64,000 nucleotides of DNA. It comes from a phage. The position numbers were made by a program, and so were the translations under genes. Position 1 is the first letter of the stretch. The number at the start of each line of letters is the position of its first letter. The notes beneath the pieces were generated by a model that saw nothing but the letters and a program-made list of their open reading frames with translations, was not told where the DNA came from and did not search any database. Shown here piece after piece: positions 9,424 to 62,331 of this stretch. The DNA lies in the sequence record PV636258.1. The stretch is one strand, 5' to 3'.

Positions 9424-9431
9424 TATAAATA
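9424..9431 (+). promoter_or_regulatory. T4-type late promoter-like box TATAAATA
   Basis: Exact TATAAATA 28 nt upstream of ATG at 9459. Confidence 0.3.
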
Positions 9432-13703: not shown

Positions 13704-13872
13704 AGTCATTCCCGAATATCGCCTTCACGCATTATCGGAAGGTGAACCCAGATCATCACGATGTCATGTTATGTTTCAAGAAGGTAAAATGATGGCCGAT
13801 GAAATCCTCTTCCTTCGAGCAGAGGTGATCCGTTTAAGTAACAATAAACCCCCAAAGAAATGAGGATATGTC

Positions 13873-14226
13873 ATGAGTTCTATTGAACAGCTGATCACAC
13901 CACAATATGTTTACAGCAATATAGTAGAGCACCTCCGCTCTCAATTGAATGTGAAGCAGTTGAACAGCTCTGAATTGAGTGGTTTAGAAATCACAGAAGT
14001 TGAAGTTGCGGCCTTCGGTAGTCGTTATCATTTTGTTGTCAATCACACTCAGGTTGAACAAGTCACTTCGAGCATTATTGACCTCGGCGCAACGAAGCCT
14101 TCCCGCGCAGAGCCGAAATCTGTGACACGCAATATTGTGGGTTATCTGGAAGAGACGTTAGAGCCAGGTGCCACCCACCCGATATTCAATTTCAACGCCG
14201 CCGTTATAAACGTTCAGGGAAGTTAA
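13873..14226 (+). CDS. hypothetical protein
   Basis: 117-aa ORF followed by terminator. Confidence 0.4.
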   Translation: MSSIEQLITPQYVYSNIVEHLRSQLNVKQLNSSELSGLEITEVEVAAFGSRYHFVVNHTQVEQVTSSIIDLGATKPSRAEPKSVTRNIVGYLEETLEPGATHPIFNFNAAVINVQGS

Positions 14227-19463: not shown

Positions 19464-19856
19464 ATGGCTATCGTTGACGAAAGCAATTTGATGGAGTACG
19501 CTCTAAGACATTATATCACCCCTGGTGTCTCAAGAGATGATTTGATGGTAGACATTCAGCGAATTTCGCTAATTAATCAATCATTGAAAAGATTTGTGCC
19601 AGGGAAAAGTCCTCGCGTACTTATCAATCAATTGATTATCCTTTTCAATACCTTTGAAACCGAAGCCGTGTGCCGAATGTTGGTGTTGAAAACGGATAAG
19701 AACCAACATCCTCGTCTTAAAGCAGCGCTGTTGACGTTAGGAGTTTGGCGAGATGATTTATGTTCCGGTTCATACGAACCAGATAATGAGCTGATGATGG
19801 CTCTGAACAACGATTTGGATGAGTGGAGGAAACCATGCCAACAATCACAGTATTAG
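19464..19856 (+). CDS. hypothetical protein
   Basis: 130-aa ORF. Confidence 0.4.
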   Translation: MAIVDESNLMEYALRHYITPGVSRDDLMVDIQRISLINQSLKRFVPGKSPRVLINQLIILFNTFETEAVCRMLVLKTDKNQHPRLKAALLTLGVWRDDLCSGSYEPDNELMMALNNDLDEWRKPCQQSQY

Positions 19857-20644
19857 TCGCACCGGAAGTTGTCCGCAACAAACCCGAAACCGAACGCAAT
19901 CATGTCGTGACGGGTGTTGCAAAGGGTTGGCAAAAGACCAGCCTCAACCAAGATCCTGACGAGATCCTGACCGAATGTAAAGGTCTTGACGCTCTTCTCA
20001 CCAAGAGCAATTTACAAGCGGACGGTGTCACCAAAGTGGATCCCACCAAGCCTATCGGCTTTCAAGTATCTTATGAAATCCACGATCCGAATGCTATTTT
20101 AACCACCGGACTTGTGATTACTCCAGCTACAGCCAGCGGAGAGATCGGACAATTTGTTGAATTGCTAGCGACGGTATCCCCTGCCAATGCCACATATCAA
20201 GGCGTTAATTGGTATTCTGGTGATATTACGAAAGCTGTACATGTCGGTGGTGGTAAATTCAAATTGCTGGCTTCAGGAACTGTAACGGTTTATGGTGTCA
20301 CGGTTGAAGGGAATCACACAGATTCTACGGTTATTACAGTTGCAGGCGCTCTATCGCTGTCGACTGATTTACCTGCCACCAAAGACGTGACTTCTGGACA
20401 AGACGGAACCTTTAGTGTTGTTGCTGCGGGCGGTACAACTCCATACACTTATGTGTGGCATTTCTCTGATACTCCTGGGGGTGCGGGGTCAGTTATCGAT
20501 GCTGGCACTAATGCCACCGCCGCCACTGCTAACCTGGTTATCACAGCAGTTGAAGCCGCAAATGAAGGCGAATATTGGTGTGTTGTTTCTGATGCAGATG
20601 GCCATTCTGTCACGTCTACTCGTTGTGAAATGGCTGTGGTGTAA
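19835..20644 (+). CDS. Ig-like domain-containing protein (possible virion decoration protein)
   Basis: ATG 19835 after GGAGGAAACC; two Ig-like repeats (ATYQGVNWYSGDITKAV; TTPYTYVWHFSD...EGEYWCVVSDADG). Confidence 0.5.
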   Translation: MPTITVLVAPEVVRNKPETERNHVVTGVAKGWQKTSLNQDPDEILTECKGLDALLTKSNLQADGVTKVDPTKPIGFQVSYEIHDPNAILTTGLVITPATASGEIGQFVELLATVSPANATYQGVNWYSGDITKAVHVGGGKFKLLASGTVTVYGVTVEGNHTDSTVITVAGALSLSTDLPATKDVTSGQDGTFSVVAAGGTTPYTYVWHFSDTPGGAGSVIDAGTNATAATANLVITAVEAANEGEYWCVVSDADGHSVTSTRCEMAVV

Positions 20645-35386: not shown

Positions 35387-35944
35387 ATGAAATATTTTGA
35401 GAAATTTCCACTCGTGTGGCATCAACTAATTGGTGTCAAAGAGGATGACCAAGTCCTGTTGCAGAACTTAACACGACGGGTTATGGTTGTTAAGAAAATT
35501 AGGGACATAGAAGGGCTTCTCCTGCCGTATACTGTTTTTGATGGGGAAACCCCAAGGTCTTTTGCCGAACGCGTCTACGGTTCCTTCGAGCTGTTTTGGA
35601 TCCCATGTCTTATCAATGGTATCATGGACATCGCAGAGGACTGGCCAAAACCAGAGCGCCGTATCATTGAAGAACTGACGGCTCGATACGGCCTTGACGG
35701 AATGTGGGATGTGAAATACTATGTTGACGAATTCGGTCATGAAACAGATCCTAGAGCAATACGTTTAGCATATGGCCTTGGTTCTATGGATGATTCCACG
35801 ATTATCGCCAACTATGGTCTGACAGGTATTACATATCATGATGATGCTATAAACAAAAACGAAGCCAAACGGAATATTCAGGTTCTAGACCCAGATTATG
35901 TTTCTTCCTTTGTTAATCAGCTGGAACAGGAGCTGACCAAATGA
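35387..35944 (+). CDS. putative baseplate structural protein
   Basis: ATG 35387 after AAGGAGAAAG; context only. Confidence 0.4.
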   Translation: MKYFEKFPLVWHQLIGVKEDDQVLLQNLTRRVMVVKKIRDIEGLLLPYTVFDGETPRSFAERVYGSFELFWIPCLINGIMDIAEDWPKPERRIIEELTARYGLDGMWDVKYYVDEFGHETDPRAIRLAYGLGSMDDSTIIANYGLTGITYHDDAINKNEAKRNIQVLDPDYVSSFVNQLEQELTK

Positions 35945-37329
35945 TCGAAAATAAAGAATCCCAGGACGGAATTTTAACTCCGTCCACAACATTTGATTTG
36001 AAATATATGGCGATATTACCACACACGCCTGAAGGCGGTACTCCCAAGCCTTATGACCTTTCATCGTTGTTTCAAGAATTCAACGTATATCAGGATCTTG
36101 GTCTGGAAGGGAATGCTTCACCGTCGCTGACAGCTAATATTCTGATCAAAGAAGGCTGGGATATATTGGATACAATGCCAATCCTCGGAGGTGAGGAAGT
36201 AGTGGTATCGTTCAAATCTCCTGCAGCTTCTGATTACACTACGCTTTCATTGCGAGTCAGTCGGGTAGGAAGAGTTGCTGATGAATCGAACTCTTCTTCG
36301 AAAAAGGCATTCTGGTTACACTTGGTAACAACAGACGCGTATCGAGATAGCATGTTGCGTAAATCTCTTGGATTAAGCGGTTCTTATTCTGAGATGGCAG
36401 CTAAGATCTTTGAGCAACTGAATTCACGCACCAAATTTGAAGACATAGATCCTTCATATGGGATACAAGAAAGGTTCGCTACCCCTCTTTGGCCTGTACT
36501 CCGCTCCATAGATTATATGGCCAGCCGTGCATATGACGAATTATTCATGCCGTTCGTTTTCTATGAAGACTTTACGGGTTATCACTTCAAAAGCATGACG
36601 ACGTTGTTCAACCAGGGCAACCAGTCTATGACTGCTGAAGAGAAGCAAGAGGCTTCTATTGAAAAGAAATTCTTCCGAGACCCTCAAGACGCGCCGTTGA
36701 TGCAGGATAACAATTTCAACTCAGAACGTTTCATGCGGACTATAATCAAGGCTGAAAAGAAACTGGCGCGTGATCAATACATGGCGAATTATCGGGATAT
36801 CTTGGCAGTGAACGAGCGCGTGTATGACTTTAGTACAAAATCCACGACAGCGACCCAACGCATTTATTCAGAATGGTTTGACAGCACTGCTCACCTTGAT
36901 CCTTTCCCTTTGTTCTCTGATCAATTCGACCGCGAGAACGTTAGGTACATTGAAGCGCAACCGGATGGTGCCGAACAAATAGATTACGCACGACGCGTTA
37001 TAGAATTCAGCCTCGCGTCAACGGTTATGCGTTTGCTGGTCGTGGGGGATAACCGTCTGAATGTTGGGCAGGTTTATTATATTGAAGATTTGTCGAACCG
37101 CCCGAAATCTAATGAAAACATTGCCGAGTTAAGTAAGTTATCAACAGGCCATTATATCGTCACAAAGATACGCCACAAGATTTCACGCCTGACAAATGAT
37201 TATCAATGCGTCGCTGAGATTGCCAAAGATAGTATGATCCAGAAGGTCTTACCGCCTCAGACTGGTCAAACTGTGGCTTCTACACCAACTCCGACGCCAA
37301 TAGAGAAAGGACAAGCCCAGAAGGTCTGA
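35941..37329 (+). CDS. putative baseplate hub/tail structural protein
   Basis: 462-aa ORF, start overlaps upstream stop; context only. Confidence 0.45.
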   Translation: MIENKESQDGILTPSTTFDLKYMAILPHTPEGGTPKPYDLSSLFQEFNVYQDLGLEGNASPSLTANILIKEGWDILDTMPILGGEEVVVSFKSPAASDYTTLSLRVSRVGRVADESNSSSKKAFWLHLVTTDAYRDSMLRKSLGLSGSYSEMAAKIFEQLNSRTKFEDIDPSYGIQERFATPLWPVLRSIDYMASRAYDELFMPFVFYEDFTGYHFKSMTTLFNQGNQSMTAEEKQEASIEKKFFRDPQDAPLMQDNNFNSERFMRTIIKAEKKLARDQYMANYRDILAVNERVYDFSTKSTTATQRIYSEWFDSTAHLDPFPLFSDQFDRENVRYIEAQPDGAEQIDYARRVIEFSLASTVMRLLVVGDNRLNVGQVYYIEDLSNRPKSNENIAELSKLSTGHYIVTKIRHKISRLTNDYQCVAEIAKDSMIQKVLPPQTGQTVASTPTPTPIEKGQAQKV

Positions 37330-37339
37330 GAGGTGACAA

Positions 37340-39280
37340 ATGGCAGATAACAATCAACCGACACCAGGGCAGCAAGACATCGTCAAGGTTTTGGATAAAA
37401 TCAAAAAAGAAATGATGGAGCGCAAGCAATTGCGCGCCCAATCCGAGACGAATAAACAGCTCGCAGATGTCAACAAACAACTGCAATCTCTGAAGACACG
37501 CCAGGCGTCTAATCAGGAGCAGAAAGTACCGCCAATTAAATTCCCATCGGTGAATGACATCGTCGGTGGGTTCGTTCGCGTTAGTCCTATTTTCACAAGG
37601 GACTATAGCACGTGGATGAAAGACACTGTCAGCCTTTCCAAGGACGGAAATGAAGAACTGATGCGAATCGCAACCAAAATAGAAAAATTTGGCGAAGCGG
37701 CGAATGGTCCTGTTGATGATATGTCTGTTGAATATCTTGACATGATATCAGATCAATTGGGCGCGGCCAACGAAGATAGTCTTGAACGCCTTGATGGATT
37801 AAAGGATAAGCTGGCGTTGGTCGGAGGGGAGATCGTAAACCTGACTGACATAATGCTTCAAACGCATAAGGACACGCTGGATTTCAATAAAGATGCCAGT
37901 AACGAAACTGTTACCCGCCTCGACAGCATTGATGACAAATTGGGATACATGAACGAAGATCTTAATGATACTCTGACACGTATCTATGAAAGTGATCAAA
38001 AATATAGAGAAGAAGAGAAATTCCGTCGTGGCGAAGAAGGTAAGGAAAACAAGAACAACCCAGAGGCTGGTTCTATCCCTCCGTCTGAGCCTAAACAAGA
38101 TGGTCAATCTTCTGGGTTAGGCGCGGCGCTGGGGGCACTCCTTGGACTGGGTGCGTTAAAACTCCTGATGTCCCCATTAAAACTTGTTGGTGGCTTCATT
38201 AAATTATTCATGGGGTTTGGTGCTGGGATCGGCGGGTTGCTTGCGCCTCTGAAAGCAGCAACCAAGATGCTTCGAGTTGGACCTCTGGCGTTAATAACAT
38301 CTGTATTTGAATTCGGTAAAGGTTTCTTTAATGCTAAAGAAATCCTTGGTAAAGCGCAAGTATCGATCGTTGATCGGGTTCAGGCAGGGATAACAGAGCT
38401 GGTCGGTAGTTTCGGGGATCTCGCTGATTGGGTTGCTGAAATATTCGGATGGAACAATGCTGGGTTTGGAAAGGCGTTCCGTGAACAAGTGCTGAAAATG
38501 ACCGAAGCGCCCGTGCGTTGGTTGAACTCGATTGTTGATTGGGTCACCAACGATTTGTTTGCGGGTATCGGGAAGAGTACATCACTGACCGAAATCCCTG
38601 GTAAACTTGCAGACAACTTACAAGGCCAATTGATAAAATTGGTTGATTGGGTAACGGGCGGAATATCAGGATTGATTGATGATGGCATGGCGGCTGCAAA
38701 TAAAGTCGTTGAAGATATGAAGAAAGGATTTGCGGAAAACGTGAAGAAACCATTCTTTAATATGTTGAATGCCATAACCAATGCCATGTTTGATATCGTG
38801 GATAAATTCGTGAGTATCATACCTGATGCTCTGGGTGGTGAAGCAGCCAGGAACAAAATGGCGGAAGCAAGACAGTCTATGCTAATCAGCCAAGACGATA
38901 AGGCTCCTGAGAATGCGTCTACGCCGCCAAGCAGTCAATCACCAGCACAACCCAATGCCAATATCAGCACGTTAACTCCGATGCCTTCTGGGGTGTCCTC
39001 AGACGCTGTCAACGTTACGGATAGAACTTCACAATTGAAAGACGCATACGCGGGAATTGGGGGAGGTACTCTGGGCGGGGCTTATCCGGTTCAAGGAAGA
39101 GCAGCCAATAACATCGAAGAAGTTAAATCCGCCTATGCTAACCCGCCAGCCAGTGTTGTGGTTCCAGTACAACAAAATGTGGACAACTCGAAGAAAGTCA
39201 GTACGACGAACAACTTCAATAGTTCACAGTTGGAGCCGTCCAACCGTACTGATACAGGGCGCATTCTCTGGGATTGGTAA
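37340..39280 (+). CDS. tail tape-measure / hub-like protein (gp29-like)
   Basis: 646 aa; N-terminal coiled-coil, Gly/Ala-rich hydrophobic stretch GLGAALGALLGLGALKLL...GFGAGIGGLLAPL typical of tape-measure proteins. Confidence 0.5.
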   Translation: MADNNQPTPGQQDIVKVLDKIKKEMMERKQLRAQSETNKQLADVNKQLQSLKTRQASNQEQKVPPIKFPSVNDIVGGFVRVSPIFTRDYSTWMKDTVSLSKDGNEELMRIATKIEKFGEAANGPVDDMSVEYLDMISDQLGAANEDSLERLDGLKDKLALVGGEIVNLTDIMLQTHKDTLDFNKDASNETVTRLDSIDDKLGYMNEDLNDTLTRIYESDQKYREEEKFRRGEEGKENKNNPEAGSIPPSEPKQDGQSSGLGAALGALLGLGALKLLMSPLKLVGGFIKLFMGFGAGIGGLLAPLKAATKMLRVGPLALITSVFEFGKGFFNAKEILGKAQVSIVDRVQAGITELVGSFGDLADWVAEIFGWNNAGFGKAFREQVLKMTEAPVRWLNSIVDWVTNDLFAGIGKSTSLTEIPGKLADNLQGQLIKLVDWVTGGISGLIDDGMAAANKVVEDMKKGFAENVKKPFFNMLNAITNAMFDIVDKFVSIIPDALGGEAARNKMAEARQSMLISQDDKAPENASTPPSSQSPAQPNANISTLTPMPSGVSSDAVNVTDRTSQLKDAYAGIGGGTLGGAYPVQGRAANNIEEVKSAYANPPASVVVPVQQNVDNSKKVSTTNNFNSSQLEPSNRTDTGRILWDW

Positions 39281-58611: not shown

Positions 58612-59415
58612 ATGAATTTACCATCATTGCCCAAAACTGAGAGAACACATAAAAGTGATTTCTGGCCGACTGTGATCAAATACCGCGCCTTTACAGCAGG
58701 GCAACAGACCATGTTACTTCAGGTTGCTGATCCGAACACTCCTATGGGTGAGCGCGTGGCAACATTGGAGCAACTATTTGACAGTTGTGTTGATGCTGGC
58801 GTTCCCTTTAGTAAACTGCCAATCGGTGTTACTGAAGAAGTATTTTTAAAGATGCGCTGTATATCTATCGGCGAGGTCATGAAGATACGTTACAAATGTA
58901 ACAATAAAGTTCAAGCCGACACAAATGAAGGTGAAGAACCAGTTTCTGGTGTTAAAGATTGTGGCCAAGAGCTTGTGTTACCGATCCCGCTCAATCAGGT
59001 AAAATGCGTGTCCCCAGAAGGCTTCAGGGAGACGTTTGATCTACCAGGTGGTTATCATATAAAGATGCGCCAGCCGTCCTTCTCGGATGCCTCAGTGCTT
59101 AATGAAGCATCCTCTGTTGAACAAATGATTGCCACCTTTATCGATTGCCTGTATGACGACGATGGTCAGGTTTGGAAGGTGGAAAATCCGGCTGAACCTG
59201 GTATCAATCCAGAAGTTGCTAAAGAACGCCAACGCATTAAGGATGAATTTGTCAAATGGGTTGGGGACAATATCGAATCTGAGATTGTTCAGGACATTTC
59301 GAATGATTTCTTTAAAAAGATTCCGCGTATTCGTTACGCGACAAAAATTAAATGCCCTTCGTGTGGGAAAGAACACGAAGTCAAATTTAACAGTGTCACC
59401 GAGATTTTCATTTAA
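58612..59415 (+). CDS. putative baseplate protein with C-terminal zinc ribbon
   Basis: 267-aa ORF with GGAG RBS upstream of gp5-like gene; C-terminal KCPSCGKEHE; function by context. Confidence 0.45.
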   Translation: MNLPSLPKTERTHKSDFWPTVIKYRAFTAGQQTMLLQVADPNTPMGERVATLEQLFDSCVDAGVPFSKLPIGVTEEVFLKMRCISIGEVMKIRYKCNNKVQADTNEGEEPVSGVKDCGQELVLPIPLNQVKCVSPEGFRETFDLPGGYHIKMRQPSFSDASVLNEASSVEQMIATFIDCLYDDDGQVWKVENPAEPGINPEVAKERQRIKDEFVKWVGDNIESEIVQDISNDFFKKIPRIRYATKIKCPSCGKEHEVKFNSVTEIFI

Positions 59416-59564
59416 TTTTTGAAATTGATTTACTCTCCTATTTTGTGATGTGTGACGAATTAAAGGCACACGGCTATAGCATATTTGAAATCAGTGAATC
59501 GATGCCGTGGCATCTTGATTTGCTTACCGAGACACTGAAAATTAGATTGTCTAAGAAATCTTCC

Positions 59565-59590
59565 AACCCCACGTAATGTGGGGTTTTCTT
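59565..59590 (+). terminator. intrinsic terminator
   Basis: AACCCCACGTAATGTGGGGTTTTCTT. Confidence 0.55.
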
Positions 59591-59921
59591 CGCTTACCTG
59601 TATTACCGTTTAAGAAAGGATTGTTTAACCCGAAATTGCTATATCACCATTGTTCCTGATATGAATGTTGTGTAAATCTGGTTTGAATTTGTTTTGAAAC
59701 AAAAATAATGCTTTTCTACGCATGTTCTGAGGTGTACAGTATTTTCCTCGCCTTTATGCCTCCATGGCATTGGAATGGGACTGCCTGTCAAGGCGGTGTT
59801 ACGAGCTTCAGCGAGTAGGAACGAAAAGAACAAAGGTTGAACGGAAGCAGAGCTTCCTATAATATATTATTCGACAGATTTCAAATCCCCGCCATAAATA
59901 TCACATGATTCTAATTGACTA

Positions 59922-61547
59922 ATGGGTTTCAATATGTTAGACAACTTGCGTTGGTTTTACGGGCGCGTTGAAGACGTGAATGATCCCGATCAAAACGGGC
60001 GCGTCGCAGTACGCATCTATGGGGTGCACACGGAGGATACCACTCTCCTGCCTACAGAATTATTGCCTTGGGGTAAAATGCTTATGCCAGCATCTAACGC
60101 ATCCTCGGCAGGTTTAGGCTGGTCTCCGACGGGTATCACTGTCGGCTCTGACGTTATGGGGTTTGCTTTGGATGAAGCATATCAGAACATCCGTATTGCA
60201 TGGGTATGGCCAGCAGCAACACCAACAGATGGGTCAGATACAAACCCATTGGCGCTGGGCCAGGTCGTTCAATCTATAGAAAGGCAGAAGTATAATGCCG
60301 TCGAGAATGTTCCTGTTAAGATTGAGGATGAACCACAACCGGATCCACAACCACCAGTAGACGGTTATGATCCTGAGAAGTGGATGACCGTGGCTCGTGG
60401 GGAATTGGGCGTCAAAGAATATTCTGGTAAGTTCAATAACAACCCAAGGATATTGGAATATCATAAGACAACTTCCCTGGGGGCTTCAGAAGATGAAGTT
60501 AGTTGGTGTGCGTCGTTTGTTGGATGGGTTCTGATACAGGCCGGATATACATCAACACGTTCTGCTTTGGCTCGCTCATATCTACAATGGGGGTCTCCTC
60601 TGTCAGAACCACGTTACGGCGCTGTTGTAGTGTTCCGGCGCGGGAACAACCCGACATTCGGTCACGTTGCATTCGTTCAGAAATTTGACGCCAACTACGT
60701 TTGGTGTATCGGGGGAAACCAATCCGATTCTGTGAAGGTGAGCCGTTTTAGCCGCTCATCCGTGTTGGGTTATCGTTGGCCAGGTCCAGCAACTACAGCT
60801 TCAGCAGCTCCGGCACAACAAAACGGTAAATGGTCTGAACCTATTCCAGATCGTACCCCGAAAGTCCAAGAAACACCGCCTCCTTCTGGTCGTGTTCAGG
60901 ATATTGACAACACAGGAGAGGTATCGGTTCCTTCGGCTGGGGGGTCTCGTTATCCATACAACAATGTTATGGCTTCTCGCGCTGGGCATATTATGGAGGT
61001 CGATGACACTCCAGGCGGGGAACGTTTGCATTGGATGCACTCTTCTGGGTCTTATAAGCAAATGCTTCCTGACGGTGATGTTGTTAATAAATCAGTCAAA
61101 GATCATTATGACCTAACGATGTTCGACAAACGTTATTATGTGGGGCGCGATCATAACCTGACTATCGGCGGGACTGAAGTACAGCGTAAGACAGGAGAAG
61201 TTTACCACTTGCACTCTTCTAACTATTCCAATGTGGTCGCTGGAACAGCGTTGATGAAATTTTCCCAATTGGCTGAGATACAGGCACAGAACGTGTTGCG
61301 TCTCATCTGTGAAATGTTTGAAGTGTCTAACACTTTGAAGGTTCCTAAGATACTGGCAACTGAAATAATTTGCGATAAATTATCGGTCGCACAGACTATT
61401 GAAGGCAACATCAAATATGCTGAAGGCGCTGGTCGCGCCGCCTCACGTGCGGGGGCAACTCCTGTAACAACTACAGGCCCAGGTCCAATTGATATAAAAC
61501 CGGAGTTAGAGGATAACGGTGGCAATTTTGGTGGTAAAGGCGCATGA
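59922..61547 (+). CDS. 5: baseplate hub / tail-associated cell-puncturing protein (gp5-like) with CHAP/NlpC-P60-type peptidoglycan hydrolase domain
   Basis: N-terminal OB-domain signature WFYGRVEDVNDPDQNGRVAVRIYGVHT ... LPWGKMLMP as in T4 gp5; central WCASFVGW ... GHVAFV Cys/His hydrolase motif rather than a lysozyme. Confidence 0.75.
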   Translation: MGFNMLDNLRWFYGRVEDVNDPDQNGRVAVRIYGVHTEDTTLLPTELLPWGKMLMPASNASSAGLGWSPTGITVGSDVMGFALDEAYQNIRIAWVWPAATPTDGSDTNPLALGQVVQSIERQKYNAVENVPVKIEDEPQPDPQPPVDGYDPEKWMTVARGELGVKEYSGKFNNNPRILEYHKTTSLGASEDEVSWCASFVGWVLIQAGYTSTRSALARSYLQWGSPLSEPRYGAVVVFRRGNNPTFGHVAFVQKFDANYVWCIGGNQSDSVKVSRFSRSSVLGYRWPGPATTASAAPAQQNGKWSEPIPDRTPKVQETPPPSGRVQDIDNTGEVSVPSAGGSRYPYNNVMASRAGHIMEVDDTPGGERLHWMHSSGSYKQMLPDGDVVNKSVKDHYDLTMFDKRYYVGRDHNLTIGGTEVQRKTGEVYHLHSSNYSNVVAGTALMKFSQLAEIQAQNVLRLICEMFEVSNTLKVPKILATEIICDKLSVAQTIEGNIKYAEGAGRAASRAGATPVTTTGPGPIDIKPELEDNGGNFGGKGA

Positions 61548-61611
61548 TTACACTGGTGAGGGCAGATAATGCCCTCTCGTGCTGGAGAGGCAATATCCAA
61601 AGGGGTTTAAC

Positions 61612-61992
61612 ATGAAAGAGTACAAGGACATTGACCTGAAGTTTGGCATGCATCCGGTCACCAAAGATGTCACTAAGAAAACAGGCATTTATGCTGTACT
61701 ACAATCTGTGCGAAATATCGTGATGTCGACGGTAGGTGATTGGCCGACATATCCGAGTATTGGGGCAGGGTTGTATACCATGTTGGGGGAAAACACAAAT
61801 CCCACGATACAGGTCGACGTGAAGAACAAAGTTGAAGATGCCATTGCTCTTTTTGAGCCAAGAGCTGAATTGCAATCTGTTGATGTATCATTGTCGGACG
61901 ATTATCATTCTCTGGGCGTAACCATCACGTTCTATGTGGTCAACAACCCAGAGCCGATAACAGACACCATATGGTTAAAACGCACAAACTGA
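61612..61992 (+). CDS. 25: baseplate wedge protein (gp25/GPW-like)
   Basis: ORF 61579-61992 trimmed to ATG 61612 (AGGGG RBS); 127 aa, GPW/gp25-like size and pattern. Confidence 0.6.
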   Translation: MKEYKDIDLKFGMHPVTKDVTKKTGIYAVLQSVRNIVMSTVGDWPTYPSIGAGLYTMLGENTNPTIQVDVKNKVEDAIALFEPRAELQSVDVSLSDDYHSLGVTITFYVVNNPEPITDTIWLKRTN

Positions 61993-62331
61993 TTAAGGTG
62001 CGTTGGTATTGGAGCGGTTGGTAATTATTTCAAAATGCGTCAGTAAACGGTACAGTAATTTCCCACCTATTCTATGGACTATGGTGGTTGACTTTAGGTT
62101 AACCACCACACCATCTAGTCTCCCCGTCAACACAAATGTTAAACGAATGCGAAGGATATCACTGCCTTCAGAACGCATTATTTGACAGTCATGGATGTAC
62201 CCTATTTCTTTCCCTTTGAGGACAAGAGGAACATGTGCGCTTTCCTTTAACAGGGTATCTAAATTTTCAAATAAAGGTTCTTCTTTGTTATTGACGGAAT
62301 ACACCGTCTCTAATATCGGGAATTTATACAT
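61993..62331 (-). CDS. hypothetical protein
   Basis: 112-aa ORF convergent with gp25-like gene. Confidence 0.4.
   Translation of the reverse strand: MYKFPILETVYSVNNKEEPLFENLDTLLKESAHVPLVLKGKEIGYIHDCQIMRSEGSDILRIRLTFVLTGRLDGVVVNLKSTTIVHRIGGKLLYRLLTHFEIITNRSNTNAP

What the first reader, a model, noticed from the sequence alone, without database searches (positions are those of the whole stretch)
59922..61547. gp5-like hub protein carrying a Cys/His (CHAP/NlpC-P60-type) hydrolase domain instead of a lysozyme
The N-terminus matches the gp5 OB-domain pattern, but the enzymatic domain has WCASFVGW and GHVAFV motifs typical of papain-like peptidoglycan peptidases, not the T4-lysozyme fold of T4 gp5. 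The protein is also short (541 aa), so the C-terminal beta-helix spike may be reduced or supplied by another protein.
Basis: partly seen in the sequence, partly recalled or inferred. Interest (0 to 1): 0.5.

Follow-up and report, generated by a model that had tools for sequence, protein, structure and literature searches.

The report
Phage tail spike with peptidase domain
This is the central tail-spike (gp5-type) protein of a Vi01/CBA120-like Salmonella phage. It carries a cysteine peptidase where phage T4 carries a lysozyme, and this arrangement was already described for phage CBA120 in 2011.

Summary
The ORF at 59922-61547 (+, 541 aa) is real. It is 100% identical in DNA to the 'tail associated lysozyme' gene of Salmonella phage Chennai (Kuttervirus, Ackermannviridae), and 226 deposited phage records hold a match.

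It lines up with T4 gp5 from end to end:
- an N-terminal gp5 OB domain (aa 7-98);
- a central enzyme slot (aa 151-288);
- a Pro/Ala-rich linker;
- a gp5C-like C-terminal module (aa 344-439 homologous to T4 gp5 387-480).

Its side inference is not supported. The protein is short because the OB/linker and enzyme parts are smaller. The C-terminal module (198 aa) is as long as T4's (189 aa), although the fold of its last ~100 aa is unresolved.

This is not new. Kutter et al. 2011 (PMC3184105) describe exactly this architecture for CBA120, and virion proteomics detected the orthologues. What is still missing is biochemistry and a spike structure.

The parts
59922..61547 (+). Whole gene: gp5-type baseplate central spike / hub protein, 541 aa (an alternative start at ATG 59934 gives 537 aa).
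   Evidence: ORF list and translation. PHROG_430 E=2e-157. 100% nucleotide identity to Salmonella phage Chennai 'tail associated lysozyme'.
59940..60215 (+). N-terminal gp5 OB-fold domain (aa 7-98). By analogy with T4, this is the part that docks on the gp27-type hub.
   Evidence: Pfam Gp5_OB E=6e-10. 43% identity to T4 gp5 aa 6-89. Modelled as a beta-barrel-like set of strands, with pLDDT 71-87 in most 10-residue blocks but 34-54 over aa 51-70.
60216..60371 (+). Linker 1 (aa 99-150). It includes the conserved GxDTNPLALGQ motif (aa 104-114, aligned to T4 gp5 126-136) and a Pro-rich stretch, EDEPQPDPQPPVDGYD.
   Evidence: Alignment with T4 gp5. Low pLDDT. Composition.
60372..60785 (+). Central enzymatic domain (aa 151-288): a TIGR02594 / CHAP / NlpC-P60 papain-like cysteine peptidase that occupies the slot of the T4 gp5 lysozyme.
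60507..60509 (+). Codon of Cys196, the predicted catalytic nucleophile (in WCASFVGW), at the first residue of a helix.
   Evidence: Invariant in the 25 hub orthologues and relatives and in at least 90% of 71 TIGR02594 domains. The helix starts at model residue 52, which is aa 196. It aligns with the conserved Cys of CwlO and CTn1-Orf17.
60663..60665 (+). Codon of His248, the predicted catalytic base (in GHVAFV), at the start of a beta strand.
   Evidence: Invariant in both alignments. It aligns with the conserved His of NlpC/P60 structures. The strand spans model residues 103-111.
60717..60722 (+). Codons of Asn266-Gln267 (in GGNQSD), candidates for the third polar residue of the triad.
   Evidence: Invariant in both alignments. 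They lie just after the strand that pairs with the His-bearing strand. The assignment as third residue is inferred, not measured.
60786..60950 (+). Linker 2 (aa 289-343), rich in Pro/Ala/Ser/Thr, with a conserved KWSEPIPDRTP motif that aligns with 'PPIPNDS' in the T4 gp5 linker. The T4 linker contains the Ser351/Ala352 maturation cleavage site.
   Evidence: Alignment. 64% P/G/A/S/T/Q. pLDDT below 50. Processing was not tested.
60951..61238 (+). gp5C-like start of the spike (aa 344-439): YPYN...GHIMEVDDTPGGER... and the first beta-helix turns.
   Evidence: 36% identity to T4 gp5 aa 387-480. Also matches a second solved 576-aa 'baseplate central spike protein' chain, 9f4a.
61239..61433 (+). Conserved C-terminal segment of unknown fold (aa 440-504). 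It contains a ...LKVPKI...L(S/T)V...I(N/E)GN.KYAE.AG motif, shared with metagenomic spikes that carry no enzyme or a different one.
   Evidence: Conserved in alignments A1 and A3. Shared with P0190 and P0187. No Pfam Gp5_C repeat. No solved relative. Not modelled with confidence.
61434..61544 (+). Gly/Pro/Ala/Thr-rich tail (aa 505-541) ending in the conserved (D/E)(D/N)xGGNF motif. In other Ackermannviridae genera the protein continues for another ~70-80 aa.
   Evidence: Composition. Alignment.
58612..59415 (+). Upstream neighbour: a T4 gp26-like baseplate hub subunit.
   Evidence: Pfam T4_baseplate E=1.3e-51. PHROG_150 'baseplate hub'.
61612..61992 (+). Downstream neighbour: a gp25-like baseplate wedge subunit.
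   Evidence: Pfam GPW_gp25 E=9.7e-9. PHROG_261 and PHROG_43.
59893..59900 (+). CATAAATA, a 7/8 match to the T4 late-promoter octamer TATAAATA, 22 nt upstream of the ATG.
   Evidence: Pattern search. Exact TATAAATA copies sit similarly before the gp26-like and gp54-like genes. This is suggestive only.

Best explanation
The gene encodes the central spike (cell-puncturing) protein of a Kuttervirus (Ackermannviridae) contractile tail. It is an orthologue of T4 gp5 in which the lysozyme module is replaced by a TIGR02594-type NlpC/P60/CHAP cysteine peptidase. What is shown: domain order and homology, the papain-like fold, invariant Cys196/His248/Asn266, the baseplate gene neighbourhood, and (from the literature) presence of the orthologues in purified virions. 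What is inferred by analogy with T4 gp5: three copies form the spike; the OB domains sit on the gp27-type hub at the tip of the tail tube; the C-terminal parts intertwine into the needle; sheath contraction drives the needle through the outer membrane; in the periplasm the three peptidase domains locally cut peptidoglycan so that the tube can reach the inner membrane. The bond cut is most likely in the stem peptide or cross-link, with gamma-D-Glu-meso-DAP as the first candidate because the closest structures are DL-endopeptidases. The phage's separate endolysin (outside the window) is annotated as a muramidase in a related Vi01-like phage, so entry and exit would use different chemistries.
Against: No enzymatic activity has been measured for this protein or, as far as the searchable literature shows, for any hub-borne TIGR02594 domain. 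The Cys-His distance could not be measured because model coordinates are not exposed to the tools. The bond specificity is only inferred from structural neighbours, which include DL-endopeptidases, a DD-endopeptidase/LD-carboxypeptidase (MepS) and amidases (CHAP lysins, Tae effectors). The trimeric needle was not modelled: the full-length monomer model has pLDDT below 50 beyond aa 290. No Pfam Gp5_C repeats were detected. A gp27 partner is assigned only by position and by the literature; BLASTP against T4 gp27 found nothing.
Confidence: 0.85

Rival explanations
1. The scaffold is the same, but the domain works as an N-acetylmuramoyl-L-alanine amidase (as many CHAP domains do) or as a DD-endopeptidase on 4-3 cross-links, not as a gamma-D-Glu-mDAP endopeptidase.
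Confidence: 0.2
2. The cysteine peptidase acts mainly in cis, cutting the spike's own linker during tail assembly (the counterpart of the gp5* / gp5C maturation cleavage in T4). Cell-wall digestion would be secondary or absent.
For: The domain is followed by a long flexible linker with a motif (PIPD) aligned to the T4 gp5 linker that is cleaved during maturation. Papain-like enzymes can process themselves. This is speculation.
Against: T4 achieves the cleavage without any peptidase domain. The same TIGR02594 domain is annotated as the putative endolysin of other phages and as a predicted T6SS cell-wall effector, where no such linker exists. Metagenomic spikes with the same C-terminal module have no peptidase (P0190) or an amidase placed after it (P0187).
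Confidence: 0.04
3. The central domain is a catalytically dead structural or peptidoglycan-binding module.
For: None specific. Activity has never been measured.
Against: Cys196, His248, Asn266 and Gln267 are invariant across all hub orthologues down to 32% identity. Across 71 free-standing domain relatives at 37-55% identity, His, Asn and Gln are invariant and Cys is conserved in at least 90%.
Confidence: 0.03
4. The protein is the phage's endolysin or a free lysin, not a virion spike.
For: Some GenBank records call it 'cell wall-associated hydrolase', and NCBI names one copy simply 'TIGR02594 family protein'.
Against: gp5 OB and gp5C modules flank the enzyme. The gene sits between baseplate genes. 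Orthologues are found in purified virions. The genome has a separate annotated endolysin.
Confidence: 0.02

Closest known systems
gp5 homologue of E. coli O157 phage CBA120 and Salmonella phage ViI/Vi01 (Kutter et al. 2011, Virol J 8:430, PMC3184105)
   Same: It is essentially the same protein. Vi01 is 98% identical and Escherichia Kuttervirus EP75 is 97.8% identical. The paper describes a 537-aa gp5 homologue that lacks the usual lysozyme. It places a CHAP / TIGR02594 / NLPC_P60 domain at aa 150-282, flanked by T4 gp5-like regions at aa 3-109 and 334-437, and notes that the ViI protein is present in the virion proteome.
   Different: Nothing of substance. This copy is annotated four codons longer at the N-terminus.
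Bacteriophage T4 gp5 (tail-associated lysozyme / central spike; PDB 1k28, 1wth, 5iv5)
   Same: The order of modules is the same: OB domain, enzyme slot, flexible linker, C-terminal needle. Identity is 43% in the OB domain and 36% at the start of gp5C. It has baseplate-gene neighbours and, by inference, the same role in the cell-puncturing device.
   Different: The enzyme is a GH24 T4-lysozyme fold in T4 and an NlpC/P60-type cysteine peptidase here. The VxGxxxxx Gp5_C repeats of T4 were not detected. No gp5.4/PAAR tip protein was found by BLAST in the window or in the Chennai genome.
Hub or spike proteins of Gram-positive-targeting contractile systems that carry papain-like hydrolases: diffocin hub-hydrolase CD1368 (8v3w_H) and Staphylococcus phage 812 hub protein with a C51/CHAP lytic domain (9euf_E, 9eum)
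   Different: The host envelope and the scaffold both differ. Those are hub (gp27-like) fusions, not a gp5 OB / beta-helix spike, and there is no sequence relationship outside the catalytic fold.
Free-standing TIGR02594 proteins: putative phage endolysins (e.g. Pseudomonas phages ZC01 gp075 and Kakheti25) and T6SS VgrG-associated effectors (Stenotrophomonas)
   Same: The catalytic domain family is the same, at 35-56% identity. It is annotated as a putative endolysin (PMC5418858) or a predicted peptidoglycan-degrading effector delivered by a phage-tail-like machine (PMC13055248).
   Different: Those are single-domain proteins or carry cell-wall-binding domains (PG_binding_1, SH3, LysM). They are not embedded in a spike.
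NlpC/P60 DL-endopeptidases LytE and CwlO (B. subtilis), the C. difficile autolysin Acd24020, and E. coli MepS
   Different: Sequence identity is only 16-22%. They are housekeeping autolysins, and here the third catalytic residue is probably Asn/Gln rather than His.

Membership tests
T4 gp5-type baseplate central spike (hub subunit) proteins | N-terminal gp5 OB-fold domain | tested here: met
   Pfam PF06714 at 40 bits against a cut-off of 25. 43% identity to T4 gp5 aa 6-89. Modelled as beta strands, pLDDT 71-87 in most blocks with a low-confidence stretch at aa 51-70.
T4 gp5-type baseplate central spike (hub subunit) proteins | C-terminal gp5C module that forms the trimeric beta-helical needle | tested here: inconclusive
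   aa 341-435 are homologous to T4 gp5 384-476 (E~1e-14 per stretch). However, no Pfam Gp5_C repeats were found, aa 440-541 have no solved relative, and the monomer model is unreliable there. No trimer prediction was available.
T4 gp5-type baseplate central spike (hub subunit) proteins | A peptidoglycan-degrading module inserted between the OB domain and the needle | tested here: met
   The TIGR02594/CHAP domain at aa 151-288 sits exactly where T4 has its lysozyme. The enzyme class differs.
T4 gp5-type baseplate central spike (hub subunit) proteins | Encoded among baseplate/hub genes and present in the virion | tested here: met
   The neighbours are gp26-like and gp25-like. Virion presence rests on published proteomics of orthologues in ViI, LIMEstone1 and Sajous1, not on this isolate.
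T4 gp5-type baseplate central spike (hub subunit) proteins | A gp27-type hub partner and a gp5.4/PAAR tip protein | tested here: inconclusive
   The 462-aa ORF at 35941-37329 corresponds in position and size to the proteins annotated as gp27 / 'baseplate hub subunit' in LIMEstone1 and Sajous1. It shows no Pfam match and no BLASTP similarity to T4 gp27. tblastn found no gp5.4 homologue in the window or the Chennai genome. No profile-level PAAR search was done.
NlpC/P60-CHAP papain-like peptidoglycan hydrolases (Pfam clan Peptidase_CA), subfamily TIGR02594 | Profile match above the curated thresholds | tested here: met
   TIGR02594 scores 132.9 bits against 70.55, over the full model length 2-132/132. 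CHAP scores 40.7 bits against 26.
NlpC/P60-CHAP papain-like peptidoglycan hydrolases (Pfam clan Peptidase_CA), subfamily TIGR02594 | Papain-like alpha+beta fold | tested here: met
NlpC/P60-CHAP papain-like peptidoglycan hydrolases (Pfam clan Peptidase_CA), subfamily TIGR02594 | Catalytic Cys at a helix N-terminus, His on a beta strand, and a third polar residue, all conserved | tested here: met
   Cys196 is the first residue of helix 196-206, His248 lies in strand 247-255, and Asn266/Gln267 follow strand 259-264. All are invariant or nearly so. Cys and His align with those of CwlO and CTn1-Orf17.
NlpC/P60-CHAP papain-like peptidoglycan hydrolases (Pfam clan Peptidase_CA), subfamily TIGR02594 | Cys-His side chains within catalytic distance, and measured muralytic activity | not testable with these tools
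No published assay was found.
T4-type (GH24) lysozyme | Phage_lysozyme profile match or lysozyme fold with a Glu/Asp catalytic pair | tested here: not met

The most novel reading that the evidence does not exclude
The last ~100 residues form a spike-tip module different from both the T4 beta-helix-plus-PAAR cap and the P2/phi92 iron-binding apex. This region comprises aa 440-504, conserved with an amphipathic stretch and the L(S/T)V..I.GN.KYAE.AG motif, plus a Gly/Pro-rich tail ending in GGNF. Sister genera extend it by a further ~75-aa domain that Kuttervirus lacks, so Ackermannviridae may use a so-far-undescribed way of finishing or capping the needle, possibly with a separate virion protein. 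In addition, the hub peptidase could prove to be the first biochemically defined endopeptidase-type entry enzyme of a Gram-negative myovirus.
Probability: 0.2. Interest if true: 0.35.

Novelty: already known. Interest (0 to 1): 0.12.

Why it matters
It matters little as a discovery. The architecture was published in 2011, it is visible in the Pfam, NCBIfam and PHROG annotations, and it is shared by the whole Ackermannviridae family.

It is a clear example that the gp5 spike is a modular scaffold whose enzyme slot can be refilled. In metagenomic relatives the slot is empty, or the spike carries other enzyme domains: M15-family peptidase Pfam entries, an apparent amidase, or an apparent lytic-transglycosylase segment together with the TIGR02594 peptidase.

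Two gaps remain that are worth filling. First, no hub-borne TIGR02594 peptidase has been assayed; a 2017 review lists only phi6 P5 as a proven endopeptidase-type virion lysin of a Gram-negative-infecting phage. Second, no Ackermannviridae baseplate or spike structure was found. Kutterviruses are widely used in Salmonella and E. coli O157 biocontrol, so the entry enzyme has some applied interest.

Tried and rejected
- **Full-length AlphaFold model** (25-sequence alignment). Only the OB and central domains were usable. The C-terminal 250 aa had pLDDT below 50, so nothing is claimed from it.
- **Profile of the last 106 aa against PDB sequences.** Only chance-level hits (NAD kinase, E~0.2).
- **tblastn of T4 gp5.4 (PAAR), gp5.1 and the C-terminal extensions of the Limestonevirus, Serratia and Erwinia orthologues** against the window and the whole Chennai genome. 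Nothing significant. A weak gp5.4 hit near 13.7-14.1 kb led to ORF 13867-14220, which is PHROG_3959 of unknown function with no PAAR match in Pfam.
- **BLASTP of the 462-aa neighbour of the gp48/gp53-like genes against T4 gp27, plus a PDB sequence search.** No support.
- **Base composition as a sign of recent horizontal acquisition of the central domain.** GC and GC3 are like the rest of the gene, so there is no signal.
- **Rfam scan of 59380-62100,** including the 346-nt upstream intergenic region. Nothing above threshold.
- **Sigma-70 promoter and terminator scan.** Not above shuffled expectation.
- **Literature searches for an activity assay or a baseplate structure for Ackermannviridae gp5.** None found.
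- **Coordinates taken from the Chennai annotation.** These are offset by a few bases from the window in places, because the window differs from Chennai by indels outside this gene. The window's own ORF coordinates are used in the report.

Full report
**Observation.** The window holds an ATG-initiated ORF at 59922-61547 (+) encoding 541 aa. A second in-frame ATG at 59934 would give a 537-aa product. That is the length published for CBA120, and most orthologues start at that point. Neither ATG has an obvious ribosome-binding site.

**Source.** The gene is 100% identical in DNA to the 'tail associated lysozyme' gene of Salmonella phage Chennai and to phage SM5. Matches occur in 226 phage records, almost all from Salmonella, Klebsiella, Escherichia or Serratia phages, and 221 of them are nearly full-length. 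Chennai is classified as Ackermannviridae, Cvivirinae, Kuttervirus. [quoted passage not shown] NCBI names one copy 'TIGR02594 family protein'. The window differs from Chennai by small indels elsewhere.

**Anatomy.**
- Pfam finds Gp5_OB (aa 39-98, E=6e-10) and CHAP (aa 191-266, E=3.3e-10), both above their gathering scores. It finds no Phage_lysozyme and no Gp5_C repeat even at E<=1.
- NCBIfam finds TIGR02594 over its full length (aa 154-286, 132.9 bits against a cut-off of 70.55).
- Solved T4 gp5 chains match two stretches only, aa 7-87 and 341-435. Nothing in the PDB matches the centre by sequence.
- A pairwise alignment with T4 gp5 is collinear from end to end. It runs through the OB domain, a shared GxDTNxL motif, an unalignable enzyme slot, a linker with a shared PIP(N)D motif, and then YPY...GHI.E.DDTPG.ER and the first turns of gp5C.

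Using the published T4 domain boundaries (from my own knowledge of Kanamaru et al. 2002), the lengths compare as follows:

| Module | T4 gp5 (aa) | This protein (aa) |
|---|---|---|
| OB + linker | 173 | 150 |
| Enzyme | 166 | 138 |
| Linker | 47 | 55 |
| C-terminal module | 189 | 198 |

The protein is therefore short because its N-terminal and enzymatic parts are smaller, not because the needle is truncated.

**The central domain.** I built an alignment of 71 TIGR02594 domains from metagenomes (37-55% identical). It gave an AlphaFold model with mean pLDDT 94.4 and pTM 0.90.
- Next come CHAP lysins (PlyGRCS 12.2, LysGH15 10.8) and the T6SS amidase effectors Tae3 (10.7) and Tse1 (8.9). No lysozyme is listed. 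Foldseek agrees.
- Cys196 is the first residue of a helix. His248 begins a beta strand. Asn266-Gln267 follow the neighbouring strand.
- These residues are invariant in 25 hub proteins down to 32% identity. They are invariant or nearly so in the 71 domain relatives.
- A profile alignment puts Cys and His in register with those of CwlO and a C. difficile NlpC/P60 hydrolase.

I could not measure the Cys-His distance because model coordinates are not exposed to the tools.

**The C-terminal module.** Only aa 344-439 are recognisably gp5C-like. Residues 440-504 are well conserved within the family and are shared with metagenomic spikes of other compositions. They lack the T4 octapeptide repeats and have no solved relative. 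They were not modelled with confidence as a monomer. Residues 505-541 are Gly/Pro/Ala/Thr-rich and end in a conserved GGNF motif. Orthologues in other Ackermannviridae genera (Serratia 3M, Erwinia phiEa2809 and relatives, 605-617 aa) continue with a further ~70-80 aa that Kuttervirus lacks. Neither that extension nor T4 gp5.4 (PAAR) has a BLAST-detectable counterpart in the window or in the Chennai genome. Whether another protein caps the needle therefore stays open.

**Context.** The gene lies between a gp26-like hub subunit (58612-59415, Pfam T4_baseplate E=1.3e-51) and a gp25-like wedge subunit (61612-61992). Elsewhere in the window are gp48-like, gp53-like and gp54-like genes. There is also a 462-aa ORF (35941-37329) that corresponds in position and size to the proteins annotated as gp27 / 'hub subunit' in LIMEstone1 and Sajous1, and it is followed by a 646-aa candidate tape measure. 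I could not confirm the gp27 relationship. The genome has a separate annotated endolysin outside the window.

**Relatives.** A search of 1.8 billion representative proteins found 11,683 relatives at E<=0.001, most of them free TIGR02594 domains. Among the hub-like ones the scaffold is clearly modular:
- OB plus the C-terminal module with no enzyme (P0190);
- OB plus the C-terminal module, followed, on my reading of its sequence motifs, by an amidase and a fibre-like tail (P0187);
- OB followed, again on my reading of the sequence, by a lytic-transglycosylase-like segment, then TIGR02594 and the C-terminal module (P0184);
- OB plus TIGR02594 only (P0192 and many others of 260-340 aa);
- OB with precomputed Pfam entries PF13539 or PF08291 (M15-family peptidases, named from my knowledge of Pfam) or with the T4-type lysozyme PF00959.

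Among cultured phages outside Ackermannviridae, the TIGR02594 part also matches inside the 'gp5' annotations of Vibrio phages ICP1 and henriette 12B8. The OB and TIGR02594 parts together match that of Rhizobium phage RL2RES.

**Mechanism.** Shown: the architecture, the fold, the conserved triad and the gene context. Orthologues are present in purified virions of ViI, LIMEstone1 and Sajous1. Inferred from T4 gp5:
1. Three copies form the axial spike under the tail tube.
2. Sheath contraction drives the spike through the outer membrane.
3. The three peptidase domains locally open the peptidoglycan.

The most likely bond is gamma-D-Glu-meso-DAP, because the best structural neighbours include DL-endopeptidases. 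An amidase or a DD-endopeptidase activity is not excluded.

**What is known.** Kutter et al. [quoted passage not shown] They add that the ViI orthologue was seen in the virion proteome. I found no activity assay and no Ackermannviridae baseplate structure in the searchable literature. [quoted passage not shown]

**Verdict.** The finding is already known and belongs to a well-populated family. The inference from shortness to a reduced needle is not supported. Interest is low. The residual value lies in the unassayed enzyme and the unresolved spike tip.

Noticed in passing
window 9424-9431, 53782-53789, 58576-58583, 59893-59900 (+): The T4 late-promoter-type octamer (TATAAATA three times, CATAAATA once) occurs four times, always on the + strand and always 29-42 nt upstream of a + strand ORF start. 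Three of those ORFs are baseplate genes: gp54-like at 53824, gp26-like at 58612 and the gp5-like gene at 59922. The total count is not above chance (4 against 5.1 expected), but the placement is suggestive. Kutter et al. 2011 noted that the late promoter of ViI-like phages had not been identified.
   Followed up: partly
window 61434-61547, and alignment A1 columns ~790-872: Orthologues in other Ackermannviridae genera (Serratia 3M, Erwinia phiEa2809 and relatives; 605-617 aa) carry an extra ~70-80-aa C-terminal domain ending ...ILRQ.GSKPQMMLSNG.TWEAM, which Kuttervirus proteins lack. tblastn found no separate homologue in the window or in the Chennai genome.
   Followed up: partly
window 59922 vs 59934: The start codon is ambiguous. 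ATG 59922 gives 541 aa (MGFNMLDN...). ATG 59934 gives 537 aa (MLDN...), which is the length reported for CBA120 and the start used by most orthologues. There is no clear Shine-Dalgarno sequence before either.
   Followed up: partly
window 59577-59921: A 346-nt stretch with no annotated gene lies between a 42-aa ORF (59448-59576, PHROG_9633, unknown function) and the spike gene. It contains only a 64-aa TTG-initiated minus-strand ORF (59639-59833) that is not annotated in Chennai. There is no Rfam match.
   Followed up: partly
window 35941-37329 and 37340-39280 (+): A 462-aa 'tail protein' (PHROG_350) and a 646-aa ORF follow the gp48-like and gp53-like genes. By position and size they correspond to the LIMEstone1 proteins annotated as gp27 hub subunit (52.6 kDa) and tape measure (71 kDa), and to Sajous1 gp54 and gp53. 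The 462-aa protein has no Pfam match and no BLASTP similarity to T4 gp27.
   Followed up: partly
proteins P0184, P0186, P0187, P0190, P0192 (metagenomic relatives): The gp5-type scaffold appears with very different cargo. P0190 has no enzyme. P0192 has the peptidase only and no needle. P0184 appears, from its sequence motifs, to have a lytic-transglycosylase-like segment plus the peptidase. P0187 appears to have an amidase placed after the needle. P0184, P0186 and P0187 also have long fibre-like C-terminal extensions (882-1129 aa).
   Followed up: no
window 19829-20638 (+): A protein annotated 'putative tail tube protein' in Chennai matches immunoglobulin-like domains (Ig_3, Big_2) and PHROG_215 'structural protein with Ig domain' / Hoc-like head decoration. 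The deposited annotation is probably wrong.
   Followed up: no
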